From NCBI GenBank assembly GCA_008632985.1, contig QPGO01000291.1, forward strand, positions 50,265 through 70,264: a stretch of DNA of 20,000 bases. The letters run 5' to 3'. This document shows positions 1-19,186 of this stretch, in pieces; position 1 is the first letter of the stretch, and each line of letters begins with the position of its first letter. Source of the stretch: Psammoneis japonica. Its lineage: Eukaryota. The position numbers and the translations under genes are program-made. The notes below the pieces were generated by a model that saw nothing but the letters and a program-made list of their open reading frames with translations, was not told where the DNA came from and did no database searches.

Positions 1-699
1 ATCTCACACCCATCTTGTTTGCAGCTGGGAGCTGCAAAAAGCACAATGAGACTGCATTGTGTCATGCTGTGCCCAGCATGCCCAGCTGAGAAATGTTGCA
101 AAATGTCACACTGCCCTCTGCTCTTGAGAGAATTGTGGTTGTCTGTCTGTCCATCAGCAACAGCACTCCCTGCAGCTGGTCTTTCTTGTGCATTGGATGG
201 TGTCAAGTGCTGTCATGGTGGGATTGTTCTTTTTGACACACTCAGATTTGATCACAATTTTTCTACTTTGCAATCATGACAACAATGTTGGCCATTTTTG
301 AGGCTGTTTCTAAACCCGTTTTGTCTGCTTTGAGGCAAAACTGGCTGAGTTTGCTTGCCTTGTCAGAGCTGAGACATGTGGTGTGATTGAGTGGGTCAGA
401 AAGTTGTCCACCATTTGCAATGGCCAAACAATCTCAAGAGAATGCAAGTGCAATGTCAAGGGCATTGGGTGGCAGAAATCTGAACACTGAAATGTTTGTG
501 CAACATGGACTTGTGTTGTGGAGACCTCCAGTGCACGCACTTGCATGAGAACATTTGTTCTCTGTGCACAGACAGGTGCCAAGCAGTGCATGGGACCATG
601 TCCCAAGCAGCTGTTGTTCTTCAGACAAAACAGCTCAGGGTCCAATCAGCCCATGTTGCTGGTCAGTTTCCTGTCCTGTTGTTGCAACATCCCTTCTGT

Positions 700-2632
700 G
701 TGCCACTCATGCAACAAATTTTGCAACAATGATTTTTTTCTAACACATTTTTGACAAATTTCCATCCAACAGGGTCTTCATGCATTGAGAGCACACTGCA
801 TTGTACCCCAACAGAATGGGAAGAACAAAATGTGGTGCACTGATTGCCGTGCTTGTTGGCAACACAAAACCCTGCTTGTTGGTGACACTTGGAACAACCC
901 TGCAAACACATTGACCTCAGTTTTGAATTTTGAATCTTAAACACAGTTGAGCAAAATGAGTTGAAGATGATTCATTCATTGGCTTCTGGTGTGAGACAAG
1001 CACAAATGTCTGAGTCATGCAATGAAAGAGCCAAATCAAATGCTGTTCAACAGAGTGAAGTGTTGAACATGAATTGGAGCAGGTCTCTCTGACAAAGATG
1101 TTGGTGAGTTGAAAGCACAAGAGCTCAAGAGTGGCAGACATTAAAAGATCATGACAGAAGAGCAGAGGCAAGGAAATGGAACACAGGCCTCAAAACTGCA
1201 CAGCTCATTGCGGTGTGCAAACAACCTCAGCAGAGCCCTTGTCAAGACATTTGAGGGACAATCACTTGGACTCACATGGGCCAAGATTGAAAGGGGCGTG
1301 GTGTGCTCCTGACACACGTTCATTTCAAAGGTGAGTCAAATTGATCCTTGGGGCAACATTTGCTCAAATGTTTGCAGGCAGGGCAAGTTTGTGAAGTTCT
1401 GTCTGACAAGCCCTTGTTTGTGCAAGCTGGTCAGTCACTTGTTGATTTTGCAGATGATGGCCTGGGCTGATGGAGTGCTGAAATGCTTGGCAACTGATGA
1501 AGCAGGAGAGTTTGCTGGCAATGAAGCTGAGTTTGTCAAACATGCACAAAAAATGAAGATCCAACTGTGTGAAACAGAAGAAAGGAGAAAGAGTCAAAGT
1601 CACATGGCTGAGCAGAAAACCAGTTTCTTGGAAAAAAGGTTGAGACTCAGAATGGCCAAAAAGAAAGCAGCAAAATGTCTGTGGGATTTCAAACTTGTTT
1701 GCTGGGCAGCTGTTGTGCATGGCATGCAGAAAAGACCAATGAACTGGGTTTGAAGAAATCACTGGACAGATGCCTGAGATTGGCAAAGAACAACTGGATT
1801 GTGAATCTTGTGATTTCCTTTGGTGGTAAATTTGCCTTGACAAGCTGAGTGTTGCTGGTGATCTGAGGAGAAGGTCTGAGCATTGGCTTGGCACATTACG
1901 CAGGGTCTGTTGGCTCAGTTGTGCACAACTGGTTGACTGCTGAAAGTGGTCAGCTGGCATCCAAGACCTTGGTTGAACACATGGCATGTGAGGATTGCTT
2001 GAGGCAGTCTCAGTGATGACATCAAGAGAAGGGTTGATGGCCTCAATGGCAAACTTTAATCTTGGCTTGATGACATGAACAAGAACCCATTTGATCCAGT
2101 GGAAGATCACTTTGCTTTTGTGTTTGATGATGTTGTTCCAATGAAAAATCCAGAGCACCTTGCAAAACTGGAGTGACACATGCAGATCAGAAATGTGGCA
2201 ACATGTTGCCAGAAGAGAGACAAAAGACAAGCATTTGGGCACAGAACACAGAACTTGCTTTTGATGTGTGGAAAATGCTGAAAGGAAAGGGATTGCAACC
2301 ACATGTTCTTGTAGAATTGATGGGCAACCAGTTGGTCACATGCACACTTGAGCCCCATTTTTGACACCTGAGAGCACAAAGTCACCCACACAAATGGGTT
2401 GACAGATGAGTGTGCTGCAGGTGCAATTGCTGAAACCTCTTTGAGCAGGTTGACAGTGTTGGGCATCATTGCTCAATTTTGAACAAGATGCAAAATCATT
2501 GCAAGAGTCAGTCAGTGATGCTTGTCTCAGCAGTGGAAAGATGGCTCAACAGAATGAACTGAAGTCAAGGATTTGAAAGCATCTGACCTGACTGAAGTGG
2601 CTGAGCATGCAGCTGCAAATTGGATTGCTGAA
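700..2632 (+). mobile_element. Degenerate Ty1/copia retrotransposon fragment A (pre-integrase region, integrase core and post-integrase linker)
   Basis: Frameshifted motifs typical of diatom copia pol: ARKWNTGLKTA, PRLKGAWC, GNICSNVCRQGKF, LATDEAGEFAG...ETEERRKSQSHMAEQ...LWDFKLV, TGFEEITGQMPEI, WLTAESGQLASKTLVEH, QWKDGS...DLKASDLTEVAEHAAANWIAE. Similarity ends abruptly at about 2632. The left boundary is approximate. Confidence 0.85.
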
Positions 2633-2633
2633 A

Positions 2634-2877
2634 TGAACAAATTGCAATGCAGTCAGCAACAATGCTGCACCAACAGACAACAAGGATGGGTGAGACTGCA
2701 ACATCAACAACCTCTTGCATCTCAGAAGATTGCAAGCCTTTCATGCAAAGAAGCCTGCCTGCACACACCAATTGGAGCACTCACACCAAGGTTAGACTGC
2801 TGCATCAAGCTTGGCTTGGTCCCCATGAAACAGCTGTGCTGTCGCTAATTTGAGCACTTGCAACAACCTCTCTCTTT
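2634..2877 (-). repeat. Putative polypurine tract and 3' LTR of copia fragment B
   Basis: On the minus strand, downstream of the RNase H stop, AAAGAGAGAGG (2877-2867) is followed by TGTTG at 2865. The sequence runs to a CA near the junction with fragment A. There is no second LTR copy in the window to confirm it. Confidence 0.45.
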
Positions 2878-2987
2878 GGGAGAGGCAAAACACTGAACCC
2901 AGAAGTTGTGGCCACTGGCTGCCTGCACTGGCCTGGGAGGCCAGCCAACATGCATGAGCTGCAGGCATGCGGCCTTGGCTGTTGGGG

Positions 2988-4350
2988 TCACAACAAAACA
3001 TTTGCACACAAGTTCCAGTGCCATCTCCCAAAACAGCCAATGACCTTTGCAAGCAAGTCCGCCAAGTTTGCACCCACATGTCTTGTTTGGCCATTCAAAC
3101 AATTCCAGCCACAACTGCTCCCCTGGTCACATGACAATTGACCATGTTGTCATGCTTCTTGTGCAATGCTGACTCTGGCACACTGAGATTCTTCACAACA
3201 CCATGGTTGTCACAAAACACATTTGCCAGTCCTCAAATCAGAGCTTCCCCCAAGCATCTGCAAATTGCACACAAGACCAACAACAATGTCCCCAAACAAC
3301 TCACTCCCAAACATTGTCAACTCAACCCCATTCTGCCTGTCACCAAACCACATTGTCAGGGCATTTTTCACAAAGACAATGACGCCCAACCAAGTGCAAC
3401 CTGTCAACAACAAGAACATTCCCAGCATGATTTGTGTCAACAAAGGCATGAACAGTCACCAGATTTGCAGAATTGAAAATTGATTTGTCACAAGCTGGGT
3501 CCTTTGGATTGCAACCAAGCAGTTTTTCAATGTGTGCCCCCAAGTGTTCATTGCTTGGTTTTGCCCAACGCTGAGACAAGACAGAGACTTGTGAAAAAAA
3601 TCAATGCACCCCAACTCTGTTGCTGATCTGCAGATGCCAGTCAGCTGCAAATGCTGAGACAACAAATCCAGCCATGGCCCAGGCTTGTCAGACACACCCA
3701 GCTCTAACTCACATGCTTGGATGACAACACTCCTTTGATGTTGTTCTTGAACACTTCGTCATTGTCATCCTCTCCCAACAACCTTTCTGCCATTTTGAAA
3801 GCATTCTTGTTGACATGCAGCCTCAGAGAACTGGCCCAAATCATCCTGCCATCCTTGGTTTGTGTGTTTTCCATGTCAGCTTCCAGACACATGGCCAGCT
3901 CACCCTTGCTCCCTTGACAACAACCTTGTCCTGATGAGATGTGATCATCACGTTGAACATGCAAAACATGCAAATGGCACTTGTGCACATTGCTGCATGT
4001 TGTTGCTTGAGTGCCCATTTTGGGGTCAGCCCCAAACAGTTGGCTCAAAACACAAATCACAAAGAAGTGCAGCAAGTGCCAACCACTGCAACAATCCAGC
4101 ACTTTTGAGATCATGCAACACCCTTGCCACAACAAGTGCATGCCCTGTGCTTCACCACACTCCTGTCTGCCTTTGCACCAGATCTTTCCCTCACACAGTG
4201 CATTCAGACACACATTCTCCAAGTCAATGGTTGTGACATCTGCATGTTCAGAGTTGGCACCAATGCAAGCCAAGTGTCATGATGTCTTTCTTGATGCCAT
4301 GCTTGAGCAAGCAATGGATGCTGGTGCTTCAGCTGTGTTTCCACCCACCT
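2988..4350 (-). mobile_element. Degenerate Ty1/copia fragment B (reverse transcriptase and RNase H)
   Basis: RT motifs: GGNTAEAPASIACSSMASR and DLENVCLNALCEGKIWCKGRQECGE. RNase H motifs: VTVHAFVDTNHAGN, GVIVFVKNALTMWFGDRQNGVELTMFGSE, CDNQGVVKNLSVPESALHKKH, NLADLLAKVI. Many stops and frameshifts. Confidence 0.9.
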
Positions 4351-5349
4351 GCCACACTGCAGAGCAAGCAACAAATGTCAAAACCAATTGTTTTGACTGC
4401 AGACACCAGCACAAATTCTGTGAGAGCAAGCAAAAAATCTTCAAAGATGGAGACATTGAGAGTCTTGAACTCTGCAAAAGTGCATCAAGTTTAAAAGTCA
4501 GTTTTTGGCAATGGCACATTTTTGACACAGCAAGCCCCTTGCAGAGATCCAATTGTCAGGTTTTCAACATCACCAAACAAACCACATGTTTTTGCTTGTC
4601 TGCATGTGTTCAACTTTGCAGCCACCAACTCATTTTTGGCACTGCAGAGAAGTTGCTTTGTTGTGGAAAAGACAAAAAACAATGATGTACAGCACATTGT
4701 TTGACTCATTTAAACCCTTGTTGGAGATGGATTAATGATCTGCCTGTTGGTGACACCATTGCATTGCCTTTCATTCCGGTGGTCTAGTGCACTGCAGCCA
4801 CCGTGAACATTTTGTCTTTTGACATTGTGTTGCCCCCAAAGTCTTGCACATGTCAACATCAATGGCACAAATGGTGGCACAGGCAAGACATGTCAGACAG
4901 CAACCACTGCATTTCATGGAGCTCTCCACTGCCTTGCAAGCATTGTAAAGACAAGCCCATTTGTTGCCATTGCAGTGTGCAGCTGCTGTGCTGCATGGCT
5001 GTGTGAAAGAAACAACACTGAACAATCATGACAGGTTGAGGTGCATCATTTTTTGATTGATCAGCAACCTTCTTACATCGAAGAATCAAGGCACCATCTA
5101 AATTTTGTGACACGAGTTTTAGAAGCAGCTTGCAGTGCAACTGCTTTGTTTGTTGGAAATCATCTTTTGAGGTCGTGACACTTGTTTTGTTGCACAGCCA
5201 CACAAGAGACATCATGATGTCACATGAGCTTCAGCAACCCAAACAAGCAGTCTTTTCACTTCAAAAGGCTTGGCACTGTGCTTGACAGAAATTTGACCTT
5301 GTGGCTTTGTTGGCAATGATTGCATGTTTTGCCCATCAACTGCCATTTG

Positions 5350-5555
5350 AATGCTGCTGATGCCATTGTTCTTCTTTACAGATTGCTGGCATCAGGACAA
5401 TCTGATGACATCTGGGACAGCAGATGGCAATTGTGTGCCAGAGAAGAAAGAAAGTGAGCAAAGGAGAGATCAGCAGATCTCTCCACTCTGTCCATGCCAG
5501 TCTGTCTGACACAAGGGAGTGTGCTCCCTGTCTTGGATGTCTGTCACCCTCCCCT
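5350..5555 (-). repeat. Putative polypurine tract and 3' LTR of copia fragment C
   Basis: On the minus strand, AGGGGAGGG (5555-5547) is immediately followed by TG at 5546, about 140 nt after the RNase H end and a T-rich 3' UTR. The distal LTR end is uncertain. Confidence 0.6.
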
Positions 5556-5687
5556 GATGAGCAGTGCAAGGCTCGCCAATGAAAAAGAAAGAGAACATCA
5601 AAAAAAAAAGAGAGAACCAGAACAGCAGAACAAAAAACAGGACCAAGAAAAAAATGCCCAAGACTTGATCCACAAACACCACAACAA

Positions 5688-6460
5688 TCAACAGCGATGT
5701 CCCGCCATCAAGTGGTGAGCATGGTGGGAATGGAGCATCCAACCCACAGCCTTGGTCAGCACTTCAGCAGGGTCAATGACACCCAGAACATGTGGAGTGA
5801 CAATTTCACCTGCCTCCTGCCAGCAGTCTTGGACAGCAAAATGTTGAATGTCAATGTGGCGGGAATGCTTCGTGGGCACCTTGTCATTGACCATCTGGAC
5901 AGCAGAGGAGTTGTCAATGTGCAAGGGAGTGGAGTCACATTGGAGAAATCCCAGCTCTTCAAGTGCCATCTGGAGGTGCAATGTCTGCTTCACAGCAGTG
6001 GCACTGGCCAAGAATTTGGCTTCTGCAGAGCTGGCAGCTGCAATTGTCTGGGTCCAGCATTGACAGCCAATTGCAGCACCAGCAAATGAGAGCATGCATG
6101 TGTCCAGTGGCAGAATGGCACTGCCAAAGTTCACTGGCATGTGCTGCATCAATGAAGCCAAGGAGCTGGAAACAATCTTTGGCATGGGGGAATTCAGGCA
6201 AAGAAGGATCAGGTTTCAGCTGTTCAAAGGACCAAGGAGGGAGACCTGGATCATGTGCAGTCTTCTCATGCATCAACCCCCAATGTTTGGTGCGTGCAAA
6301 CACTTTGCCATTTGCTTGAGAGAAGTGCAGTGAATCTCATTGGAGTTCTTGGAGAACTTCAACAAGGTCACAATGGGACAACCAACATCCAATCAACAAC
6401 AAGTGTGCACAAAAAAAATAAATTCACCCAGAACAGGCCCATGGGAGAAACCCTGGGAAG
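5688..6460 (-). mobile_element. Degenerate Ty1/copia fragment C (RT C-terminus and RNase H)
   Basis: Motifs GFSHGPVLGEL, DVGCPIVTLLKFS, RTKHWG, LLGFIDAAHASELWQCHSATGH, TQTIAAASSAEAKFLA, HIDNSSAVQMVN, SRHIDIQHFAVQD and VLTKAVGWMLH match Ty1/copia RNase H. Confidence 0.92.
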
Positions 6461-9400
6461 CCACTCACAAACATTCCTTCCAGCAATGCCATTGGACTGG
6501 CTGGCTCATCTTTGTCCAGCCATTCTCTGGTCAGTTTCCCATTGCAGACCATGCGTCCCTTGATCTGACTGTCTCATTTTTCCATTGAGGAACATTGAGG
6601 CACACATGGCATTGGTCCTCTCACTTGGAGTTGTGTCTTTGACAGATTTTGGTGCAAAGCACACTCTGTCATGGAGTTGTTTCATCTCCTTCTTGAAGGC
6701 ATCATGCCCCTCCTGTCTGAATGCTTTCAGGCTTTTGTGCAGTGGGCACTGTTGGGCAAACAAAATGCCCTTTCTGGAAGAATGGAATCTGTCATTCTTT
6801 TTCAGACATAAACTGTGCCAGTGCCATTGCCAATTTAGAATTGTGCTCAATGTCTTGTTCTGGGGTTTGGACTTGCATTTGTTTGCAAGTGATGGCAGTG
6901 CTCAAGTTTGACAACATTTTCCTGCTCTTCTTTGGCACTGGTTGCTCCTGTGAACCTTGCTGTCTTCTCATGTTTCTTGTGCCTTTGTGCAAAAGACTTC
7001 CCAGACCTTGCAGTCCTGCCAGTTGCATCATTGGCTTCTTCTTCTTCTGTTCTTTCTTCAGGTCCCATGCTGTTTTTGTGGGATTTGTCATCATCTTGTG
7101 TGTCATCAGCATTTTTGCAGCCATCTTCTTTGTGATGGTTAAGATTCTCATCATCAGACTCTGTTTCTTTGTCATGCTGGTCAGGATTCTCATCTTTGAA
7201 CTCTGTTTCTTTGTCATGCTGGTCAGGACTGGACTTTTTGCCAGCTGGGATGTCATTGGCTTCTTTGCATTCTTTGTCTGAGTCCACTTCATTGCAGTCT
7301 ACATCATTGTTGTCTTTGCTTTCTTTGTCATTGCATTTGTTGTCTCTGTCATTGTTGTGGTCTTGTTCCACTCCTGCAGTCCAACCAGCATCCAAAAAAT
7401 TGTCTCTTCATTTTCCTGTGAATTTAAAATCTTTAACACCCTGGGCCAATGCCATTTTCAATGGCTCTGACATGGGTGTTGGTGAGGGGTGCAGAGGTGC
7501 ACTTGTGGGGGCAAAGAAGTTTCCCAGTGTGCAAGTTCCTCCCTTTGGATGGTCAAAATGTGGGTGCTGCAGATGCATGCTGTCAAGGCCCCACATTTCC
7601 ATTGTGTTTGTGGGATTGTTCTCAACATGAGACAAAAAAATTCCCCAAATCAAAGCTCAAAATGTTCAGCACAGTCAAGAACCCGGCACTCCACAATGGT
7701 GGACTGCAGGTGTCCAAGATGCCTTCCTTCTCTGCAGGCACATGTTTGCCATGATGGTGCCCTTGACAACTGCATGCTCACACACAAGCCTGGGCACAGC
7801 CTTGAAATGCAGGTGATGTGAGGTGGCCCAAGTTCTCTCCTTGATGGTTTCAATGCTGTGCTCAACCTCTGGTGCATGATCACTGGTGTTCATGGGCATG
7901 AGTTCAAGGTTCATCCCATCAGCCACTTCAGCAAGCATGGCCTTGAATTTGGGGTTGCATTCAATGAAGTTGATCTTGAACAAGGCTTTGTCACATTGAC
8001 ACATCACCATGTCCAATGACTCACACACATCTGTGTGTCGCTTGGATTTAAGCTTCATGCTTGAATGATGCTTGATCGTCTTGTCAACAGCGCATGGCAG
8101 TTGAATGCTGCACACCTCACTCAATGATGTTGATGCACAGGGTCACACCTTCCCTCTGTTTTTCACAGATCTCAGGTGGTGTCGCAATTGTGTCACACTC
8201 ACATGAGGTCAGTGTGTGCATTTGGTCTTGCCTCTCAGAAAATTGACAGGTGGTCCCCAGATGTCCACTGTTCTGTCCATGTCCTGCAGCAGGTTGGACA
8301 AGTTCTTCACCAGATTAGATTGCAGGAATCACTTGAAATCCCTGACACTGGGTGTTTCAGTCTTGTGATGCAGGCCCATGGTGTCATGTTTCACAGTCAG
8401 GACAACAGCTCCTGATGCACTCTTGTGCTTCTTGTTTGTTTTCATGGCGTGCTTCTTGGCTGTCATGCTGACTTGTGACTCTGCTCTTTGTGCAGGTCCT
8501 TGACATGATCAAAGAACTTCTGGCTTGGTGCAAATGTGTGCAGCCCAATGTCATTTGCTTTGAATGCTGCAACTTGGTTGCCAGTCTTCTTGTCCAGCAG
8601 CCAGAACTCATCTGCCACCACTTGATTGTTGTGCATCATGTGGCACTTGGCCTTGAGACCACATCCTGCAAGCTCAGGATGTTTGCCATTGTGTGCTTCA
8701 ATCCCAACTTCATGTCACCCCATCCTGGCATGGTGCAATCCTTGTCTGGGGTGTCCACTCCTGCATTTGTGGACAGGTCAGGTCTGGCTCATGCTCATCT
8801 CTGGTTGCTCCTTGACCAGTTACAACCCATGCCATGCAGCTCCCCTGCTCCAGCTCAAAACAGTTTAATCTTGTTGATCTGGTGGTGTTGACACTCACAT
8901 TGCTGTCCACCAAAGAGAGGTCTGCATCACCTCTCTCATTTGCACATGGCTCTGTCCCATTGTGCCCACTTTCTTTCTGGTCGCTCTTCTTGAACCAGTC
9001 TTTTGCTGCCACCTTGTCCTTGTGTTTGCACCCCCCAGGAATTTGTGGTCTTCTTTGCCACAACAGTGGCATGTTGTCTTCTTGCCTTGTTGTGTGCCAC
9101 CCATCTGGGTGTGGGTCTAGTTCCTGGTTGCATTGCCATTCTTGTCCTTCCCATTGCAATTGTCTTGATGGTCAGAATTCTTCCTTCTCAGTTTGTCATC
9201 CCACTCATGATTCAGCAGGGCATCCATTGCTCTGTTCAGGTTTTTTGGGTGAGTGTTGTTTCCCAGAATGCAGTTCCTCACAAAACTTTTCTTTGGCAAC
9301 TTACAGCAATGGTCATCCCTGTTCTCAATGAACAGATGAGCAGACCAGGCCTCAAATGCCAGCTTCTTCAGCTCTTCTTGTTTGTGATTGGGACTTTCCT

Positions 9401-10168
9401 TGTGCTCCTTGGTGTTCTCAATGAACCCATTTAGCATCTCACTGCCCAGACCATCTCTGGGCTGGTGGAGTCTCGCTGGTTCTTGAATCTTGACAGGTGA
9501 CAACAACAGACTCATTTTCTTGTTGTTTCACTTGCAGCACATTCTTGAGCAACTTTGTCAGCATGTGGAACAGACAACGACCCCTGGCAGTGTTGAATGT
9601 CAGGGAATGCATTGGTTTCAACAATTTGATTGGGTCATCCCTGATCTTTTTGCAGCTTGGATCACCCAGAACCCTGGTCCTCACATGGTTTGCACAGCAG
9701 CAGTCATCCAGGATTAAGGTGAATGCCTTTGATTTGTTCTCCTTGAAGTGCTTCAGTTTTGTGCAAAAATTCTTGCACATGGATTGGCACTTGCATTCCA
9801 ACTGCTTGTTGTTGTGCTCCTTCTGTCTCACATCATCATCACATGCACTTGAGTCTTTCTTGAGTTCAATTGCCAACTGTTTGAGTTTTGGCTTTTTTCT
9901 TCTTGAAGTCAAGGTGCTTCACATCCTCCAAGGACCTTGCTGTGCATTTGCCCTGCTTGAAATCCTTCTCTGTGTGTCTGCAGAGCTTCCTCTTGATGTC
10001 TTCATTTGTTGCACTGTGTGTGTTGCTGTTCAGGGTTGAAGGGTGGAACTTCATCTTGGGTTGAAAGGACTTCTTTTTCTTGGTGTGGCTTTCATTACCT
10101 CTGCCACCACCATGACCCTTGTGTTGGTCACGGCCTCTTCCATGCCTTCCAGGTCCTCTGCCACACAT
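6461..10168 (-). mobile_element. Degenerate Ty1/copia fragment D (gag, zinc knuckle, protease region, integrase, acidic linker, start of RT)
   Basis: The domain order fits copia. Gly/Arg-rich gag start (ATG about 10168); gag KIRDDPIKLLK and AFEAWSAHLFIEN...GNNTHPK; knuckle CHCCGKEDH (about 9075-9045); STNAG...MANILSL; WGPPVNFLRGKT; integrase DHAPEVEHSIETIKER; RT start KKEMKQLHDRVCF...IKGRMVCNGK...ASP. Truncated at about 6460. Confidence 0.92.
7110..7228 (-). repeat. 42-bp tandem repeat (2-3 units) in the acidic integrase-RT linker
   Basis: gattctcatc at 7143 and 7185, and ctctgtttctttgtcatgctggtcagga twice. Encodes PDQHDKETEFKDEN-PDQHDKETESDDEN. Confidence 0.9.
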
Positions 10169-10899
10169 GGTGCAGAAATCAATGATCATGTGGTCTTCTG
10201 ATGAGATGGCAAGCACTCAGCATGTGCAAATGTGACTCTTTGGAGTGAGTGTTGAACCAATGAGTCAATGTCACCAAAAGGGAATCCTGCGAGGCTTCCT
10301 GCGCCACTCGTTGCACTTTCCCTGGTCTCTGTGTTTGCCATGGTTTGCCTCACATCTAATGCAGAATGTGTGCCAATGGATTGTTGGATGTCAACAGACA
10401 CCACTTGTTGCTCTCAACAGTTTGGATGACAATCCAATGACAATCCAAATGATTCACTCCAAAGAGTGAGCATAAAAAGTTGGTGAGATTGAGATTGATG
10501 ACAGAGAAAATCCTCCAAAGAACAGTCATCAGCCCACCACATCAGGATTCAAAAGATGCAACTTCATTTCCAGGTCACTCTGTGCCCTCAAGCTAGATGC
10601 TCTGACATCAAGTGCCCTGACAAGTTCCTTCAAATCAATCAAAACAGTGGGTGCAGGTCAAGCACTGGATGCATGCTTTGGAAAATGTGGTGCACCAGAG
10701 AATTCACTCCAATTGCAAAAGGGATGTTTCATTTGTGGATCAAAGTGTGTGGGCAATTAACTCCAATCACAATCACCACCTTTGTGCAGTGTGGTTGAAG
10801 AGCAAGTTGAATTTTGCAATCCAACATTTGACAAGGCAAATGAGGACACAAATCATCAATGTCTGCCAAAGCTCATGCCTTGAGCACAGAGCTTTCTTG

Positions 10900-11410
10900 T
10901 CAAGTGATGCAACTGTGGAACATTGGAAGGGTCAACAGCAGTTGCCAGCAGAACAAGCTTGTTGACAAGAGAATGTGACTCTGGAACAATGCACAAACAT
11001 CATCCTTGGATTGAGCATGTTTTGGGTCATCAAAGAACTGATCCAGATCAAATGTTGCATGGCCACAAGTGTCGTTGTGTTGGTGAACAGTGCATCATTG
11101 AAACACAAGCTGCATCTTGGCAAGGGCATCAAAGATGCTCTTTGCTGTCTTGGGGTTCACCACAGTTGAAGTGCTCAATGTTTTTGGTCATGAACACACG
11201 GAAGTGTGGCACACTTCAGTGGGAAATTGTGCACAAATGACAACACTTTCAGGATAAAAAAATGCAATGGACTTGCTCAGCTCACAAAACCCAAGTGAAT
11301 CAAGGGAGGAGTTGAGGCACAGCAGATGCGTGTGCTGCAACAAGGCCACAACCTGATGGAATGGCAACAGCAAGAGTGTCAAGTGCAGGGAACCTCTCTG
11401 CAAACCAGTG
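10900..11410 (+). mobile_element. Possible degenerate DNA-transposase C-terminus (piggyBac-like)
   Basis: Across frames: DQML, KMLFAVLGFTTVEVLNVF, then RCVCCNKATT*W...KCREPLC, which resembles a terminal Cys-rich domain. The evidence is weak because Cys is inflated by the local composition. Confidence 0.25.
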
Positions 11411-12129
11411 ACAGAGACAACACATGCACCAGCAAGAGCAAGTGACAAACAGATCTCAGAGAGACATGTGCTCATCTGTCTGAGCCTGATGCCTGACCAT
11501 CATCTGCCCAAAGTCCAGCCACACACACCAGGGCAGATCAACTGACACTTGTGGCAAGTTCTGGACAAATCCAAAGAAAACTAAAGAAAACCCTGCATCT
11601 TGCCAGTGCCTTCAGAGAAATGAAACAGACAATTCTTTTTTAATGATGACATGGATTTTGCTGCATTTTCACAAATGTTGCATTTAAATTTGTTTGTTCT
11701 CAACAGATTGGGGGGAGTGGAAACCTTTGCACAGAAAGCCAAGACTCTTTGCAGTGCCAAGTGTTGGGCAGACTTGCTTGGGTTGGCAAGCACAGCACCA
11801 GAGAGAGGCAAACTGGAGGATGATGAGGAGGAGCAAAAGGAAATGAGAGTCAACTTAAGAGCATGGAGCATTCATCATGGAAATCTGCAATCTGCCACTT
11901 TTGGAAAGTCCAGGAACAACCAGCAAACCAGGTTGCTCTTGTCTCCAAACATTTGAGTGACTGCTTGGGTTGCTGATTGCAGAGGCACCCAGACAAATTC
12001 TTTCCACAAAGAGATGTTCACGTGGCTTGGGATCCTCTTCTTCACCTCTGAACATCAAGACGACCAATGAGAGCCAAGGGGTTGCTCCCTGGTGAGGTGT
12101 TGACATTGCACTTCCAAGGAAGGGAGTGT

Positions 12130-13014
12130 TCTTCAATGCCGCAGCCCCAAAATCTCAGTTGCAACAGGGCTCAGCTGCCCTTGAAAGGCAGTGTGTGTGG
12201 GTTGACTGCTGCCGCTGCAACTGCTGCTGCCACTGTCATTGTGAATGCCACCATCACAACTGCTTGCCATTGCAGCTGCTGTTGTTGTTGCAGCTGCTGC
12301 TGTTTTGACCACTGACATTGTGCAGCTGCTGCTGCAGTTTGCAGCTGGCACACACACCATTGCAACAGCTGCTGTCATTTTCACTGCTGCACTGTGGCTT
12401 CTGCCATTGCAACCACTGCCATTGCAGCTGCCATTTTTGTGACTGCCGCCATTGCGACTGCTGTCATTGCGACCACTCTTGCAAAGAGATGGCACTCAGT
12501 GGAGCAGGGATTGCAAAGGCAGTCAATCACAGCCAACTGCTTCTGTTGCAAGGACTGCCATTTCTGCTGCTGCTGCTGCTGTTGTGACCACTCCTGCCAT
12601 TGTTGTGACCACTCCTGCCATTGTGACTGCTGCCATTGCAGCTGCCACTGCTCAGATTGCTGCTGCTGAAGCTTGGCTGTGCTTTTGCTTTTTGCATCAA
12701 TTGGTGGCAAAATTCTCTCCACATCTTGCTCATTCTTGAAATCCCATTTTGCCTGCCTGCACCCTTCCTCTGTGTCTGGCACCCTCACGCAAGTGCTCCT
12801 TTGCTTGTTTGCTGTGGCACTCAATTCTGCCACCCTCTCCTTGAGCATGGCAAGCCTCCTGCCTGGGGCATCCAAAAGGTGGGCGCATTTTGCTTTCGTG
12901 CCAACTCTTCTTCTTTAGCATCACACTTAGCCCCAAACAGGGCTTCTTGTCCTTTGGCATGGGTGACTCTTCTGTCAGAGCCCTTTCCACTGCCAACGCT
13001 GCCGGTTCCGCCAC
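12130..13014 (-). pseudogene. Probable degenerate coding sequence with a Ser/Gly/Asn-rich low-complexity tract; origin (host gene or TE) unknown
   Basis: Protein-like, frameshifted segments AEPAALAVERALTEESPMPKDKKP, LKERVAELSATANKQR and DFKNEQDVERILPPID, followed by repeated S(C/H/R)NG units. Confidence 0.4.
12200..12670. repeat. Low-complexity triplet-based repeat (GCT/GCA runs, CTGCCATTG units)
   Basis: Multiple ctgccattg(c) copies, a (tgc)n run at about 12565-12580, and ttgtgaccactcctgccattg twice at about 12582-12623. Confidence 0.85.
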
Positions 13015-13019
13015 GGTGA

Positions 13020-13135
13020 TTGGTGCTTCACATCCGGCCTACTTTGGCGTGTTGGAGTCGAGTTAATCAAATGACGGCTGGCGACGGGCGGAGCGCGGTG
13101 CCGTCCGGCCGGTAATACAAAGTAAGGTTTTAGCG
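13020..13135. promoter_or_regulatory. CpG-rich segment at the domain boundary, upstream of VTA1 (candidate promoter or boundary element)
   Basis: 13 CG in 120 bp (gcgacgggcggagcgcggtgccgtccggccgg), directly adjacent to the CpG-free domain. The function is inferred only from position. Confidence 0.35.
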
Positions 13136-13432
13136 ATAAAACACAGAGCCTGAGAAGGGTAGTCGAACTCATTGTTGCTTGTTCGAAGTTGGCTAGAGAC
13201 GCTTTGGAGCCCATTCACTCGCTAAATTGTACGTTCCATCTTCTGATTCTCGCGGGTCAACTACTTACCTGGGTCAAACTGATGCAGGAGTGCGTCGCGC
13301 TGTTTTTTCCTCGATGTTCGAGAATTTCTGAATCGTGTTTTCGTCTCGTTGATTTGTTCCGCAACAAAAGCTCTCTCACTCTGCATCTGTTCATATCAGC
13401 ATATAGATTGAATACAAGTTTTCATTGCAATC

Positions 13433-14454
13433 ATGCCTCTTTCTATTCCACTAGAATTGAAAAAGATCACTCCCTTTGTGAAACGAGCCGAAGAGTTGGA
13501 TCGTGACAAGGCCAATCCCGAGTCCCGTCTCGTTGCCTATTATTGTCGTCAATACGCGGTCCATGTCGGAATTCCCCTGGCCTCGTCGTCGCCGGCTGGA
13601 AAGACGTGTTTAGGAACTCTCTTGGGAGAATTGGAAAAAGAAAAGGAGGCCATGAGCAATTTTACCCGTGACGAATCCAAGTATTTGTGCCGTACCTTTG
13701 CCGACAAGGTGTTTGACAAGGCGGACGCGGAGGACCGAGCGGGTGCCGCGACAAAGGCCACGGCGAAAACCTTTTATGCGGCAGCAACCTTTTTTGAAAT
13801 TTTGCAACAATTCTATAAAGAAGGAGAAGAACCAACGGCGGATCAAGAAGAGGAGCGAAACAAGACGGTGTATTCCAAGTGGAAAGCGACAGAAATTCTG
13901 AAGGCAATCAAGGAAGGGAGACAGCCGACTCCTGGTGGGTACAATGAAGAAAAGGACGCAGAGGAGGAAGAGGAAGTTGTGGAGGAGGAACAGCAAGGAG
14001 ACGATAAGGAAGAAGAAGGACCTTCAGAGGAGGACGAACCCGTGGAGGAAATGGATGAGGCGCCGCCCGAGGAGCAGCCTGAGGATGAGGATGAAGGTAC
14101 TGAAGTTGAGCTTCTTGGCCCGCCTCCTGAATACCCTGGTGGGACTGAATCATCACCTCCAGAAGTCTTTGTGGATGATCGACCGCCGATTGCCCCTCCA
14201 ATGGCTCCTCCGGAACCTCCGTCGTTTCCTGTTGCCCCAGTTGAGCCAGCGGCACCACCACCGGCCGCAAGTCGTCAAACAAGTGGTTTGGACCCAAGAA
14301 GAAGAACAAGGCTGCACCACCCGGTCGTGTATCGAATGACGCAATAGAGGATGCCAAGGAGCTGACCAAGTTTGCCTTGTCGGCGCTGGAAAGCAAGGAC
14401 GTGGAGCTTGCGAGTTCACGACTGCAACAAGCATTGGAAGCTTTGGGTCGGTAG
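13433..14454 (+). CDS. VTA1: Vacuolar protein sorting-associated protein VTA1/LIP5 (Vps4 cofactor), with an apparent -1 frameshift near 14245-14285
   Basis: N-terminal tandem MIT region (ITPFVKRAEELD...VAYYCRQYAV...FADKVFDKADAEDRAG...TAKTFYAAATFFEIL...YSKWKATEILKAIKEGRQPTPG) and an acidic/Pro-rich linker. The C-terminal VSL domain (AIEDAKELTKFALSALESKDVELASSRLQQALEAL) lies in the -1 frame and ends at TAG 14452-14454. Confidence 0.93.
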
Positions 14455-14616
14455 ATACCTGTTGGAATCCTTTTGTGGTTCTTTGCCTCGTATCATTGTG
14501 GAGTTCGACATGAAACTCGTCAATAGACGAATGAATGCTAGAGTGTTATCTACTGTACTCTAGAGAACACACGGTCTGGAATCCTTTACCTAATTTTCTT
14601 CTCTAATTTTCTCACG

Positions 14617-16311
14617 TCAGATGCTTGCTTCATCGGGCGTCTGCGTTTGCGACTGCTTCAGAATCGAAATCTTTCTAGTGCGAAAGTAGTTTGCTTCCAA
14701 CAGCTGAATGACTGAAGTTGTTGACATGTCCTCGACACTTATATCCTCAATGGCCACAATGACATCACCACTGTGGATGCCTTGTGAGTTCCAAATCGAT
14801 CCGTCCTTTATGTTTGTTACAACCAACTTGTATCCGTCAGACTTTATGGACAAGCCAATCTCTCCGGGTGGGATTTCAACGTGGTGTAGTTGTTGCTGTA
14901 TTTCTTCAGTCGCACGATATCCATAGCAATGAAACTCATCACTGGGACAACTAGACTGCGACGAAACTGACATTGTGCTGACACTGTCGCCATCATGCAT
15001 CTCTTGTGCATGTACCCAGAAGGATCCTTCTGTACCAGCACTACTCTGTGATAGTGACATCTCATCCGCATCGAAGTTAATGATTATGTTGCCGGCATGG
15101 CATGGCTGTTCATCCACAAAGTACTCATTAAATGGTGTATGTTGGGTCTCGCCTCTTGATACGGATGGCTGTTCATCAACAAAGAATTCATCCAATGGCG
15201 TATATTGAGTCTCGCCTCTTGATACGGATGTGGTTTGTTCAATCGGTAAATGAACTGTTGACTCTGAAGCTTTTTGCCAAGGCTGGTGCCGAGAAATATT
15301 TGTTGCATTTCTATCAGAGTGCGTCAATCTTGGGCTGACCTCTGCGTCGGTGTTACGCCGGCTTACACTGAAAATGTCGTGGGAGTAGATTTATTGGCAG
15401 AGCTGTTTCTATTTCCACTTGATTCTGTGCTCCGACCTACTATACGATTGCTTACTGGCCTTGTTGGAAGGTACAGCTCTGTTGTTTCCAGCCTCCGGTA
15501 CCCTGTTTCCGCTCCACGCGATCTAAATCAACAAGAATACAGCAACAGGTAAGATGCACGGGATGGGCACAAGAAGCGCCAGCCAGATTATTTCGTTTAC
15601 CGACCTTCTTCGCTTGTGAAGAAACCCTCGACGACTTTGTTCAAAATGTATCAAGAGACCAACACTCACACCACCAAGGAAACAAACCAGCAGGATTGGT
15701 GGGCGGTCTCGTGCAGAATCAACCTCGGAAGCCTTGGTGAGCGACCGCGATATCAACTCGACATGACTTGTATTTTCAAAGTAAGATAAGCCAGTATCGT
15801 GTAAGTATCCAACAAAGTGGTCGCCCGACAAGTTGAACATTTTCGTAATCTTGTTTCGAATCTTCTTCTTGCCTGAAACGTCTTTGACGGACATCTCCTC
15901 AAGTGAGACCTCCGTTTTCACTCGAATCCAAGATAGCGCTCTGTTGTTCCGCAAGTTGCTACTCTCAAATCCTTTGTTCTTCTCAAGCCTCTGATCCACG
16001 AGACTGACGCGAAGGCTGCTAACGTTGTTCAATTCATCAAGGACGTAGTCTTGTAGGAAACGTTCACACGCTCGAGAAAAATGCTTTTCTTGTTCATCAT
16101 TCATCTCGTGTTGAACAGCATCGAGCAGCAAAACCATGGTGGACGAGACTGAAGATGAGCCTTCATTATCTTTGGTACGAGAAACTGAGTTTGAGTCCAT
16201 TGTTCTATTTACAAAGTTGGGACCTCTAATGTTGGACTTGGTTTCCAATCTTTTGCCTAGACAGGAAAAGACGAAACAAAGTAAAACTGAAGAGAACAGC
16301 CGCGCCTTCAT
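14617..16311 (-). CDS. Predicted single-pass membrane protein with a C-terminal PDZ domain (joins ORFs 16353-15523 and 15327-14617)
   Basis: Signal-like N-terminus MKARLFSSVLLCFVFSCLG, then TM ILLVCFLGGVSVGLLI followed by basic residues. Plausible 82-nt intron 15604-15523 (GTCGGT...CTTAC...TTTAG). PDZ: IPPGEIGLSI...VVTNIKDGS...IHSGDVIVAIEDISV. The join near 15370-15310 needs a second intron or a 1-nt indel. The PDZ call is firmer than the join. Confidence 0.7.
15102..15230 (-). repeat. 63-bp in-frame tandem duplication inside the PDZ gene
   Basis: Encodes SVSRGETQYTPLDEFFVDEQP and SVSRGETQHTPFNEYFVDEQP; atggctgttcatc occurs at 15102 and 15165. Confidence 0.92.
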
Positions 16312-18231: not shown

Positions 18232-19186
18232 TCAGATGAATGGCGGTGCGGGCGGTGGACCAGATGACACGCTTGAGCGTGGTTTGATCAAAGGACTACC
18301 ACCGACACTTCTTGCTGACGTGCTTCGCGACGCACCCAAGCAGTGGGGACTGTTCGGCAGGCTTGACACCGCGCCAGGGAGCTTGTACTCATAGACAATT
18401 GGCTCATTCCGTGGAGAATGAGGTACCCCCGAATCGCTTCCCCAACTCATTGATCGTCGCCTCCATTTATCTGGCCGCTCGCCGGCCGGGTGACTCACGT
18501 CGTAATAGTCACTCTCTTCCAAATGTAGGTTGATTTTCTCAATGATGAACTTGCCCTCCTTGTACTTCTGACTAGACTCGTATGCCTTTGCATACGTCCA
18601 CCCCACCATTCCCTTGCACCGCTTGCAGAATATATCACAGACGCTGTGCAGGCCTGTGATGAGCAGTCGATCCTCTGCCGGACCAATTGTAATGTTCACG
18701 CACTGGTCGAATAGGTAAGCGCGACCTGACAATTGAAACATACAGCAGACTAGCGTGAGAACCAGCGTCTAACTCATCGAATAATAAAGTACTGGGACCA
18801 GCTCGGAATCAAGACTCACCATGGCGCCCGTGAAAGCTCTTGGAAATGATATCGTCGTGGCTCGTAAGGTGCGTACGGCACTGGCCACAGGTATATATTT
18901 GAGGTCCGTCAAGATATACCATTGAATCATTTTCTTTTCGCGCATTTTCTCCTCTGGCTTTGGCCAAAGCCTCAGACGCATCGCTAATGGACTTTTTGCT
19001 CCCCGGAGAAGATACAAAGCGAGGAGATGACATTGAAGAGCTTTTTCTTCTAGTGGCAGCGGGTGATCTTGGTGAAAACTTGAAAGCACCTTCTGTGTCG
19101 CGAGATCTTGATCGAGAACGAGATCCAGGCACTGGCGATATCAGCGATACCTCCGTAGGAGGTCTCACTGCGGTATGGCTGCTCAT
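18232..19186 (-). CDS. YPEL: Yippee/YPEL-family zinc-binding protein, 2 exons (19186-18820 and 18725-18232), 286 aa
   Basis: [31 protein letters not shown]...[44 protein letters not shown] 94-nt intron 18819-18726 (GTGAGT...TGTCAG) joins the exons in frame (861 nt). Confidence 0.96.

What the first reader, a model, noticed from the sequence alone, without database searches (positions are those of the whole stretch)
1..13000. Candidate repeat-targeted hypermutation that erases TpA as well as CpG (an anti-RIP signature)
Seen: both palindromic YpR dinucleotides, CG and TA, are nearly absent over 13 kb on both strands and across several distinct elements in both orientations. TG/CA is in large excess, and the neighbouring genes are normal. 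Known: deamination of 5mCpG (diatom TEs carry CG methylation, attributed to DNMT5) gives CG->TG/CA. Fungal RIP converts CA->TA and so creates TpA. Neither process removes TpA. Inference: a second, regional process converts TpA to TpG/CpA (A->G 3' of T). Candidates are a TadA/ADAT-like DNA adenine deaminase (TadA-derived editors prefer TA), deamination of a modified adenine, or error-prone patch repair of G:T mismatches by a pol-eta-like polymerase (TA hot spots, as in somatic hypermutation). I do not know of a described genome-defence pathway with this signature, but cannot exclude that it has been reported.
Basis: partly seen in the sequence, partly recalled or inferred. Interest (0 to 1): 0.92.

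Follow-up and report, generated by a model that had tools for sequence, protein, structure and literature searches.

The report
Transposon relics stripped of TpA, CpG
A 13-kb stretch of dead transposons in a diatom genome has lost nearly every CG and every TA dinucleotide by mutation to TG/CA. The CG loss is the familiar decay of methylated DNA, but the equally strong TA loss points to a second DNA-marking or DNA-editing process that I could not find described.

Summary
In window 1-12880, CG O/E is 0.07 and TA O/E is 0.05, and TG/CA is doubled. The block ends within about 120 nt, just upstream of normal diatom genes. An independent re-assembly of a public run reproduces the sequence across that edge.

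The TA loss is mutational, not native. In the one recognisable Ty1/copia RT-RNase H relic, 0 of 10 conserved Tyr codons survive and 8 are now His or Cys. Eighty environmental relatives have ordinary TA content.

The same process shows up elsewhere. In metagenomic copia relatives, polarised substitutions show TA transitions at 3.5-8 times background, and 33 times in one copy. One environmental contig and several public ORFs carry the same signature, some with CG still largely intact.

The events are strand-symmetric, independent of flanking bases and not clustered. This argues against RNA or cDNA editing, RIP-like processive bursts and pol-eta-type repair.

Most likely this is slow, in-situ, domain-limited decay at TpA, separate from CpG decay. 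I favour the mutational footprint of a symmetric base modification on TpA, but this is inferred and untested. Eight literature searches on TpA loss, RIP, hypermutation and base modification in diatom or transposon DNA found no prior description.

The parts
1..12880 (.). Converted block, which continues beyond the left end of the window. CG and TA are almost absent and TG/CA is doubled, on both strands.
   Evidence: 98 of 3125 YpR steps are CG/TA. The 50 CG and 48 TA that remain are scattered.
12881..13000 (.). Edge of the block, where composition changes to normal.
   Evidence: change point at 12880/12884, and CG is dense from 12997 onwards. One contig of run X1 spans 12069-19243.
5691..6584 (-). 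Relic of the C-terminal RT/RNase H part of a Ty1/copia polyprotein, frameshifted and 5'-truncated.
   Evidence: 5882 homologues with E<=1e-3, best 2.4e-33; 6 of 6 full-length hits carry RVT_2; tblastn places it at 5697-6584; a profile of 18 pols hits only the ORFs at 5691-6392.
1313..1750 (+). ORF resembling an integrase core of a diatom retroelement (weak evidence).
   Evidence: nearest Atlas clusters score 0.92-0.93 and are diatom hypothetical proteins; one rve-bearing cluster scores 0.90. No Pfam hit and no PDB hit.
7678..8142 (-). ORF resembling an integrase core of a diatom retroelement (weak evidence).
   Evidence: nearest clusters score 0.96 and are diatom hypothetical proteins; the nearest cluster with a Pfam family is rve at 0.91. 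No Pfam hit and no PDB hit.
12180..12700 (.). CTG/CAG-rich low-complexity tract inside the converted block.
   Evidence: repeat families D1, D2.
13433..14347 (+). Vta1 gene, the first unconverted neighbour, used as an internal control.
   Evidence: PF04652, E 8.6e-38; 492 homologues, and the named ones are diatoms.
14617..15390 (-). PDZ-domain ORF with normal composition.
   Evidence: PF00595, E 8.8e-8.
18232..18768 (-). Yippee/Mis18-like exon with normal composition.
   Evidence: PF03226, E 4e-6; a contig of run X2 skips 18724-18817, which looks like an intron.

Best explanation
Shown:
- The block is a stretch of degenerate retroelement DNA in a diatom chromosome.
- In it, both self-complementary YpR dinucleotides have been driven almost to extinction by transitions (CG->TG/CA and TA->TG/CA).
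- The changes are strand-symmetric, independent from site to site and independent of flanking bases. They stop sharply about 300-400 nt upstream of an ordinary gene.
- The TA loss is a mutation of pre-existing TA. It also occurs in related copia elements from unrelated environmental assemblies.
- It is separable from CG loss.

Inferred:
- The changes accumulate in place on chromosomal DNA of a silenced chromatin domain, at roughly 30 times the background transition rate for each of the two dinucleotides.
- The CG half is ordinary deamination of 5-methyl-CpG.

Committed mechanism for the TA half (about 40% in total). TpA carries a symmetric, chromatin-targeted base modification, and its occasional mispairing or decay gives T:A->C:G. 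By analogy, CpG decay is the footprint of 5mC. I favour an oxidised thymine (5hmU/5fU-type, made by a TET/JBP-like dioxygenase) at about 25%. An N6-adenine mark is less likely, at about 10-15%.
For: Simple conversion model. Turning every CG/TA of the flank into TG or CA at random gives CA 1.88, TG 1.93 and 45.8% GC. The block shows 1.90, 1.88 and 46.7%. The same holds against 51 copia loci.

Polarity in the window. Of 142 conserved columns of the copia relic, Tyr is kept in 0 of 10; 4 are now His and 4 Cys. Arg is kept in 2 of 11, and 7 are CGN->CAN/TGN. Other residues are kept in 82 of 121. Of the 58 changes, 31 are explained by a single CG/TA conversion.

Polarity at the DNA level in relatives. 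In the L008 family, TA transitions run at 0.070 per base-lineage, against 0.0085 at other sites and 0.060 at CG. Across 21 lineages the figures are TA 45/634, CG 36/335, TG/CA 106/5011 and other 163/8098. In L008 alone the ratio is 33-fold.

Nature of the events:
- Symmetry: TA>TG 19 against TA>CA 16 relative to the pol sense strand.
- Flanking bases make little difference: 0.041-0.086 per context.
- No clustering: runs z = +0.91. Blocks of 3 or more same-strand conversions would give z <= -4.7.
- TG/CA transitions are not raised (0.021 against 0.020), so the target is TpA and not T before any purine.

Separability from CG loss:
- L008 has 10 TA and 4 CG transitions, L019 has 0 and 9 (p = 0.0016).
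- Public ORF P0088 has 10 of 11 Tyr columns as His/Cys, but Arg kept at 6 of 13. P0102 has 6 of 7 as His/Cys and Arg kept at 8 of 11.

Action in place. In contig L008 a fairly young copia end (91-92% identical to five other loci, TA partly lost) abuts a flank with CG 0.18-0.28 and TA 0.08-0.15.

Equilibrium estimate: k/mu is about 30 for CG and 31.5 for TA.

Precedent for a thymine mark on transposons in another SAR lineage. 5hmU made by a TET/JBP homologue marks and silences dinoflagellate TEs (PMC11572971, passages). A 1980s report of 5hmU in TA and TC contexts is quoted in PMC11071213 (passage). Diatom methylation is mainly CpG on repeats (PMC5124317, passages).
Against: No modification was observed, and no native-DNA data or gene repertoire could be examined because no genome is held.

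Against the specific marks:
- The base-resolution 5hmU map of Breviolum shows no sequence motif (PMC11071213).
- By the listing and abstract start of bioRxiv 10.1101/2024.10.28.620566, known eukaryotic 6mA is tied to transcription. That it sits at ApT is my recall.
- That 5fU mispairs with G, and that 6mA is not notably mutagenic, are also recalled, not tested.

Limits of the evidence:
- The DNA-level polarised evidence comes from metagenomic relatives of unknown species, not from this genome.
- In the window itself the polarity rests on about 0.9 kb of one relic. There, 27 of 58 changes are unexplained, and some of them will be natural family differences.
- Transposon origin is firm for under 1 kb of the 12.9 kb. 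The rest rests on weak ORF resemblance and on raised read depth in some bins.
- CG and TA O/E co-vary across the 80 loci (Spearman 0.45), and both are about equally complete in the window. A shared or coupled process would also fit these two facts.
- The 30-fold estimate assumes equilibrium.
- A distributive deaminase working slowly in heterochromatin would leave the same pattern.
Confidence: 0.4

Rival explanations
1. A dedicated enzymatic genome defence. A DNA adenine deaminase of TadA/ADAT2 type, which prefers A after T, or another base-flipping deaminase, acts on repeated or silenced chromosomal DNA. It may work together with a RID/DNMT4-like cytosine deaminating activity.
For: The loss is confined to transposon-derived DNA and is nearly complete. 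It is heterogeneous between copies of one family (L008 against L019, p = 0.0016). It can be complete in ORFs that are otherwise little diverged (P0088, P0102), which could mean bursts. Diatoms carry DNMT4 enzymes related to fungal RID, of unknown function (PMC9998398, passages). The TA preference of TadA-type deaminases is recalled.
Against: There is no clustering or strand runs (z = +0.91, where blocks of 3 or more would give <= -4.7). There is no flanking-base preference, whereas TadA-type enzymes are recalled to read a loop context. No natural deaminase of adenine in double-stranded chromosomal DNA is known to me. Duplication dependence was not testable. A slow, distributive version cannot be told apart from the best explanation with these data.
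Confidence: 0.25
2. Repair-linked mutagenesis. G:T mismatches from 5mC deamination recruit error-prone patch repair by a pol-eta-like polymerase, which mutates nearby A:T pairs at TA hot spots as in somatic hypermutation.
For: CG and TA depletion co-vary across the 80 loci (Spearman 0.45). They coexist in the window.
Against: AA/TT is not depleted (1.19, against 1.08 expected), although WA is the recalled pol-eta motif. TA transversions are rare: 1 against 23 transitions, and 11 against 45. TA loss occurs with CG largely intact (P0088, P0102; L008).
Confidence: 0.08
3. Editing of retroelement RNA or cDNA during retrotransposition (ADAR/ADAT-like A-to-I, APOBEC-like C-to-U), fixed on integration.
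For: The firmly identified element is a retrotransposon. APOBEC editing of LTR retrotransposons is known in vertebrates (PMC4866542, search listing only).
Against: The events are strand-symmetric relative to the pol sense strand (19 against 16 for TA, 15 against 14 for CG; Tyr to Cys 4 and to His 4). The block is uniform across relics in both orientations and between them. About 92% conversion would destroy any element before it could integrate again. In L008 the flank is more converted than the element.
Confidence: 0.03
4. Native composition or selection. These elements were always poor in CG and TA, for example through avoidance of RNA-level sensors as in RNA viruses.
For: TA is mildly under-represented everywhere (flank 0.57, copia loci mean 0.63).
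Against: Conserved Tyr codons are replaced by His/Cys (0 of 10 kept). Whole-locus TA O/E in the relatives is 0.24-0.92. The relic is frameshifted and truncated, so nothing selects its codons.
Confidence: 0.02
5. Sequencing, conversion-chemistry or assembly artefact.
For: Run X1 may be the same sample as the assembly, so it is not independent for chemistry. Its library type is not on record.
Against: One contig joins the converted block to normal genes (12069-19243). The same signature appears in an unrelated metagenome contig (L008). It also appears in Tyr-less ORFs from ENA and JGI assemblies. No single conversion chemistry known to me turns both 5mC and A-after-T into the observed letters.
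Confidence: 0.02

Closest known systems
CpG decay of methylated repeats (deamination of 5-methylcytosine; diatom repeats are CpG-methylated, PMC5124317 passages, PMC9998398 passages)
   Same: CG->TG/CA transitions, strand-symmetric, site by site, confined to silenced repeat DNA with normal genes next door. The CG half of the block fits this fully.
   Different: It does not touch TpA. The depletion here (O/E 0.07) is deeper than the roughly 0.2 I recall for vertebrates.
Fungal repeat-induced point mutation (RIP; RID/DNMT4-like enzyme), including the CpG-directed RIP-like hypermutation of basidiomycetes (Microbotryum, PMC5381629, search listing only)
   Same: Transitions that inactivate transposon copies, leave neighbouring genes alone and shift dinucleotide ratios strongly.
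   Different: Neurospora RIP turns CpA into TpA and so creates TpA (recalled), whereas here TpA is destroyed. RIP is only C->T, needs duplication and a sexual phase, and gives strand-runs (recalled). Here A:T pairs mutate and there are no runs.
5-hydroxymethyluracil made by TET/JBP homologues on dinoflagellate transposons (PMC11572971, passages); base J of kinetoplastids (recalled)
   Same: A post-replicative thymine modification that marks repeat DNA in a related (SAR) lineage. An old report places it in TA and TC contexts (quoted in PMC11071213).
   Different: No mutational footprint is described there, and no motif is found in Breviolum. Nothing is known in diatoms, and no modification was observed here.
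TadA/ADAT2-ADAT3 adenine deaminases and fungal sexual-stage A-to-I mRNA editing (recalled, no call)
   Same: A->G outcome with a preference for A preceded by T/U.
   Different: They act on RNA or single strands in a loop context. Here both strands of chromosomal DNA are changed, with no flank preference.
Phase 2 of somatic hypermutation (pol eta, WA/TW hot spots; recalled)
   Same: Mutation at A:T pairs secondary to cytosine deamination, with TA as a hot spot.
   Different: AA is also a target, and transversions are common. Neither is seen here.

Membership tests
CpG decay through 5mC deamination | CG lost specifically to TG/CA, on both strands | tested here: met
   CG O/E 0.07 with TG/CA doubled. 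Seven of 11 conserved Arg are CGN->CAN/TGN. CG transitions are 5-7 times background in relatives.
CpG decay through 5mC deamination | The region is CpG-methylated | not testable with these tools
   No bisulfite or native-read data. Diatom repeats are CpG-methylated according to PMC5124317.
Fungal RIP | The product dinucleotide TpA is enriched (CpA->TpA) | tested here: not met
   TA O/E is 0.05 and CA is 1.90.
Fungal RIP | Only C:G pairs mutate | tested here: not met
   Tyr TAY became CAY/TGY at 8 of 10 columns. TA transitions are 45 of 634 in relatives.
Fungal RIP | Clustered, strand-specific tracts of mutation | tested here: not met
   Runs z = +0.91, with demonstrated power.
Fungal RIP | Dependence on sequence duplication and on a RID-type enzyme | not testable with these tools
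   No genome is held. Diatom DNMT4 is related to RID, function unknown (PMC9998398).
RNA/cDNA editing of retroelements (ADAR, ADAT, APOBEC type) | Changes confined to one strand relative to the transcript | tested here: not met
   TA>TG 19 against TA>CA 16, and CG>TG 15 against CG>CA 14. Tyr to Cys 4 and to His 4.
Pol-eta-type A:T mutagenesis | WA motif (AA as well as TA), with frequent transversions | tested here: not met
   AA/TT is 1.19, against 1.08 expected. TA transversions are 1 against 23 transitions and 11 against 45.
Ty1/copia LTR retrotransposon (for the relic at 5691-6584) | Homology to the RVT_2-type polyprotein, RT/RNase H end | tested here: met
   Best hit E 2.4e-33. Six of 6 full-length hits carry RVT_2 and SH3_retrovirus. 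Profile E 2.4e-48.
Ty1/copia LTR retrotransposon (for the relic at 5691-6584) | LTR pair, gag, protease and integrase of the same element | tested here: not met
   Only profile positions 1019-1246 of 1255 are present. No LTR pair is found even after collapsing YpR steps. It is a fragment.
Symmetric DNA modification at TpA (proposed) | A modified T or A present at TpA in silenced DNA | not testable with these tools
   Needs native-DNA reads or mass spectrometry.

The most novel reading that the evidence does not exclude
At least one diatom lineage lays a heritable, symmetric chemical mark on TpA in silenced transposon chromatin, as a second DNA mark alongside 5-methyl-CpG. The mark would be either an oxidised or hypermodified thymine or an N6-adenine mark. 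Its mutational footprint, the extinction of TpA, can be read directly from genome sequence and used to map the mark's past targets. Equally novel would be a natural enzyme that deaminates adenine after T in double-stranded chromosomal DNA.
Probability: 0.4. Interest if true: 0.95.

Novelty: new variant of a known kind. Interest (0 to 1): 0.85.

Why it matters
Context-specific decay of silenced DNA is so far known only for cytosine (CpG decay, RIP). A TpA-specific transition rate about 30 times background would be a new mutational signature, and it needs a cause.

Whichever cause holds would be new for eukaryotic chromosomal DNA. A modified thymine or adenine would mean a second epigenetic mark in a major group of marine primary producers. 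A deaminase would be of direct interest as a natural A-to-G editor of double-stranded DNA.

There are practical consequences too:
- The process erases Tyr codons and TAA/TAG stops, and creates long spurious ORFs in all frames (61 stop-to-stop ORFs of 100 aa or more in 20 kb).
- It hides transposons from Pfam (no family reached its curated cut-off in any of the 132 ORFs) and from word-based searches.
- Diatom repeat annotation and gene calling are therefore affected.
- The signature is simple to screen for in any genome or metagenome.

Tried and rejected
Genome and internal structure:
- No whole genome is held for the window. Genome-wide profiles, young same-genome copies and the enzyme repertoire could not be examined.
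- Internal repeats or LTR pairs were not found. Only low-complexity families appeared, and still nothing after collapsing all YpR steps to one state.

Family, homology and structure searches:
- Twenty chosen ORFs gave only flank-gene hits.
- In all 132 ORFs of 60 aa or more in 1-13200, no family reached its curated cut-off. The best was E 0.0022 at 18 bits against a cut-off of 27.
- A word-based homologue search with the RNase H ORF (lengths 'longer') gave 0 of 819 candidates at E<=1e-3. The full HMMER scan then found 5882.
- Rfam had 0 matches in the window.
- The PDB sequence search for the two integrase-like ORFs gave 0 hits at E<=1.
- A profile of 18 full-length copia pols found nothing outside 5691-6392 below E 0.4.

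Sequencing runs:
- No RNA holder is listed for the stretch. Run X3 laid nothing.

Earlier findings of this scan:
- There is nothing for this genome, for the sequence, or for three word sets. The listed phage cases of CA/TG bias do not bear on this.

Literature:
- Searches gave no paper that describes TpA loss in diatom or other transposons.
- One search failed because a term was too short and was not repeated. One search failed on a bad term and was corrected.

Ideas rejected on data:
- T->C before any purine, with CpG decay recycling the TpG products. TG/CA transitions are not raised (0.021 against 0.020).
- GC-biased gene conversion. AA/TT and AT are not converted.
- UV dipyrimidine damage. 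TC and CC are not notably depleted.

Full report
OBSERVATION

The finding is correct as described.
- Over window 1-13000, CG O/E is 0.07 and TA O/E is 0.05, while TG and CA are 1.87 and 1.90 at 46.7% GC.
- Over 13001-20000 the values are 0.97, 0.57, 1.18 and 1.11 at 47.3% GC.
- All 13 of 13 one-kb bins on the left have CG <=0.16 and TA <=0.08. All 7 of 7 bins on the right have CG >=0.82 and TA >=0.45.
- Counted as pyrimidine-purine steps, 98 of 3125 are CG or TA in 1-12880, against 658 of 1655 in 13001-20000 (Fisher p = 4e-236).
- The change point lies at 12880/12884, and composition is normal from about 13000.
- The 50 CG and 48 TA that remain are scattered.
- TAA and TAG are nearly absent in all six frames (56 and 21, against 696 TGA). 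Tyr is 0.07% of six-frame residues, against 2.3% in the flank. This is why the block is full of long spurious ORFs.

IS THE SEQUENCE REAL?

No genome is held for the window. Contigs built independently from public run X1 reproduce it.
- One piece covers 1-5463 with 2 differing letters and 1 gap.
- Pieces with 0-1 differences cover most of 6380-12093.
- One piece covers 12069-19243 and so joins the converted block to the normal genes.
- All 30 of 30 depth bins are covered.
- Depth is about 73-84 in the low-copy bins of the block and about 58 over the genes, so the block is roughly single-copy.
- Some bins are much deeper (5337-6003: 2633; 10006-10672: 478), which shows that these parts have relatives at 90% identity or more.

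X1 may be the source sample, so this checks the assembly rather than the chemistry. The independent check on chemistry is that unrelated public assemblies show the same signature (see 'Does it happen elsewhere?').

WHAT IS IN THE WINDOW?

The right flank holds ordinary eukaryotic genes: Vta1 (E 8.6e-38), a PDZ protein and a Yippee-like protein. Among the 120 listed Vta1 homologues, the two whose source name shows an organism are diatoms (Asterionellopsis and Grammatophora, 56-57% identity).

Inside the block, no Pfam family reached its curated cut-off in any of the 132 stop-to-stop ORFs of 60 aa or more. A word-based homologue search also failed. A full HMMER scan with ORF 5691-6215(-) found 5882 homologues, the best at E 2.4e-33. 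All 6 of 6 full-length hits examined carry RVT_2 and SH3_retrovirus, and 5 of 6 carry gag_pre-integrs, so they are Ty1/copia polyproteins.

Only the last 230-300 residues or so of such a polyprotein are present, at 5691-6584 on the minus strand, and they are frameshifted. Two other ORFs, 1313-1750(+) and 7678-8142(-), resemble clusters of diatom hypothetical proteins. Their nearest clusters with a Pfam family carry rve, but Pfam and PDB give nothing, so I treat them as weak. No LTR pair is detectable, even after collapsing all YpR steps.

'Transposon graveyard' is therefore firm for under 1 kb and inferred for the rest.

IS THE TA LOSS A MUTATION?

Three tests say yes.

(1) A bare model reproduces the block. 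Turning every CG and TA of the flank into TG or CA at random gives CA 1.88, TG 1.93 and 45.8% GC, against 1.90, 1.88 and 46.7% observed. The total frequency of YpR steps is unchanged (0.243 against 0.237). Against 51 copia loci of 2 kb or more treated the same way, the other dinucleotides lie within about 2.5 sd.

(2) Polarity in the window itself. I examined 142 columns of the copia relic where at least half of 15 or more homologues agree.
- Tyr is kept in 0 of 10 columns. Eight are now His (4) or Cys (4), which is TAY->CAY/TGY.
- Arg is kept in 2 of 11. Seven are CGN->CAN/TGN.
- All other residues are kept in 82 of 121 (Fisher p = 2.8e-5 for Tyr).
- Of the 58 changed columns, 31 are explained by one CG or TA conversion and 27 are not. 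Some of the 27 will be natural family differences.

(3) Relatives are not TA-poor. Eighty metagenomic loci that encode this RNase H have whole-locus CG O/E of 0.44-1.28 and TA O/E of 0.24-0.92. The 150 best public homologues have a median of 3.05% Tyr.

DOES IT HAPPEN ELSEWHERE?

Yes, and this gives DNA-level polarity.

- L008 family. In six copia lineages about 92% identical, with two outgroups, lineage-specific substitutions give transitions per base-lineage of 0.070 at TA, 0.060 at CG, 0.013 at TG/CA and 0.0085 elsewhere. TA transversions are 1 against 23 transitions.
- Pile-up over all loci. This stricter count required a unanimous state in at least 3 other lineages, and 21 lineages had 300 or more usable sites. 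It gives TA 45/634, CG 36/335, TG/CA 106/5011 and other 163/8098. TA against other has p = 1.6e-11.
- Uneven across copies. L008 has 10 TA and 4 CG transitions and L039 has 7 and 5, but L019 has 0 and 9 and L037 has 0 and 4. L008 against L019 gives p = 0.0016. In L008 the TA rate is 33 times the non-CG/TA transition rate.
- Same signature in an environmental contig. Contig L008 carries, next to its copia end, at least 1.4 kb with CG 0.18-0.28, TA 0.08-0.15 and TG/CA 1.6-2.0. Parts of L032 and L033 are strongly CG-depleted with a weaker TA loss.
- Tyr-less public proteins. Of the 150 public homologues, 9 have under 0.6% Tyr. P0088 (333 aa) has His/Cys at 10 of 11 Tyr columns and no Tyr there, yet keeps Arg at 6 of 13 columns. 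P0102 has His/Cys at 6 of 7 Tyr columns and keeps Arg at 8 of 11. These proteins come from ENA and JGI assemblies.

TA loss can therefore be essentially complete while CG is largely intact. The two processes are separable, although across loci CG and TA O/E co-vary (Spearman 0.45).

SHAPE OF THE PROCESS

- Relative to the pol sense strand, events are symmetric: TA>TG 19, TA>CA 16, CG>TG 15 and CG>CA 14. Tyr went to Cys 4 times and to His 4 times.
- Neither the base before T nor the base after A matters much (0.041-0.086 per opportunity).
- In the window, the order of TG and CA along the block is random (1539 runs against 1514 expected, z = +0.91). If conversions came in same-strand blocks of 3 or more sites, a 7-kb test sequence would already give z <= -4.7.
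- TG/CA transitions are not raised, so the target is TpA itself.
- AA/TT is not depleted (1.19, against 1.08 expected).
- If the surviving CG and TA are at equilibrium between creation from TG/CA and loss, both dinucleotides mutate about 30 times faster than background transitions (30.3 and 31.5). This matches the 33-fold seen in L008.
- If the process has stopped instead, about 1.6% later transitions would explain the survivors. This is my estimate from the counts. The data do not decide between the two.

MECHANISM

Shown: regional, dinucleotide-specific, strand-symmetric, unclustered transitions at both CG and TA. The TA part is a true mutation, it recurs in other assemblies, and it is separable from the CG part.

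Inferred: it happens in place on chromosomal DNA of a silenced domain. The block is uniform across relics of both orientations. It has a sharp edge about 200-300 nt upstream of where the X2 contig covering the Vta1 gene begins (13199). In L008 the flank is more converted than the element.

The CG half fits 5mC deamination, since diatom repeats are CpG-methylated (PMC5124317, passages; PMC9998398, passages).

For the TA half I commit, at about 40%, to the footprint of a symmetric base modification on TpA. I prefer an oxidised thymine made by a TET/JBP-like enzyme.
- Such a mark silences transposons in dinoflagellates (PMC11572971, passages).
- An old report places it in TA and TC contexts (quoted in PMC11071213).
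- 5-formyluracil is recalled to mispair with G.
- Against this, Breviolum shows no 5hmU motif, nothing is known in diatoms, and I saw no modification data.

An N6-adenine mark is less attractive. By the listing of bioRxiv 10.1101/2024.10.28.620566, eukaryotic 6mA goes with transcription. I also recall it as ApT-specific and not notably mutagenic.

RIVALS

- Dedicated adenine deaminase of TadA/ADAT type acting on silenced DNA (0.25). It fits the TA preference and the copy-to-copy heterogeneity. It is not favoured by the lack of tracts and of flank context, and a slow distributive enzyme cannot be excluded.
- Pol-eta-like patch repair (0.08). It is contradicted by intact AA, by the rarity of transversions and by TA loss without CG loss.
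- RNA or cDNA editing (0.03). It is contradicted by the strand symmetry and by the uniform block.
- Native composition (0.02). It is contradicted by the Tyr columns and by the relatives.
- Artefact (0.02). It is contradicted by the bridging contig and by the independent assemblies.

COMPARISON WITH WHAT IS KNOWN, AND NOVELTY

The block works like CpG decay extended to the other self-complementary YpR step.

It is not RIP. TpA is destroyed rather than created, A:T pairs mutate, and there are no tracts. That is three defining features tested and not met.

Eight literature searches returned no description of TpA loss in diatom or other transposons. The library lacks most subscription journals, and I read no supplements, so a prior report cannot be excluded.

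I rate this a new variant of a known kind: context-specific decay of silenced repeats, with a new target. The underlying agent could well be categorically new.

LIMITS

- DNA-level polarity comes from environmental relatives of unknown species.
- Within the window, polarity rests on one 0.9-kb relic.
- The transposon origin of most of the block, its chromatin state and any modification are all untested.
- The left end of the block lies outside the window.

Noticed in passing
window 18724-18817 and 13199-14574: Run X2 is recorded as 'DNA?' but behaves like cDNA. One contig skips 94 nt (CT..AC, which is GT..AG on the minus strand) inside the Yippee-like gene, and another covers the Vta1 gene from 13199. 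X2 also gives low depth over 12007-13340, so part of the converted edge may be transcribed.
   Followed up: no
window 1-12880: The two purine-pyrimidine palindromes are also shifted. AT O/E is 0.83 (expected 1.00, z -2.5) and GC is 1.23 (expected 1.03, z +2.1) against 'converted' copia loci. The shift is modest and may only reflect different element families, but it could be a weaker A:T->G:C drift at ApT.
   Followed up: partly
window 12180-12700: There is a CTG/CAG-rich low-complexity tract with long ORFs on both strands, just inside the converted edge. Contigs of both runs join it to other CTG-rich loci that do contain CG.
   Followed up: no
window 10263-10470: A roughly 200-nt segment has raised depth (478). 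Several contigs run on into unlike flanks that contain CG. It also holds three of the block's rare CGs within 20 nt (10290, 10302, 10309). It may be a younger repeat unit or a less exposed patch.
   Followed up: partly
window 7124-7207: A 42-nt unit is duplicated in tandem (74% identity) inside a Lys/Met/Thr-rich low-complexity ORF region upstream of the copia relic.
   Followed up: no
L033:1201-2100 and L032:2401-3000: These environmental contigs have segments with CG almost absent (0-2 per 300 nt) but TA still present (7-24 per 300 nt). That is CG decay without TA decay, the reverse of P0088 and P0102.
   Followed up: partly
proteins P0088, P0102, P0056, P0074, P0132, P0130: These public copia ORFs of 127-333 aa have 0-1 Tyr but are still open. 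TA->TG/CA cannot create a new in-frame stop and removes TAA/TAG, so converted elements yield long false gene models in metagenome protein sets.
   Followed up: partly
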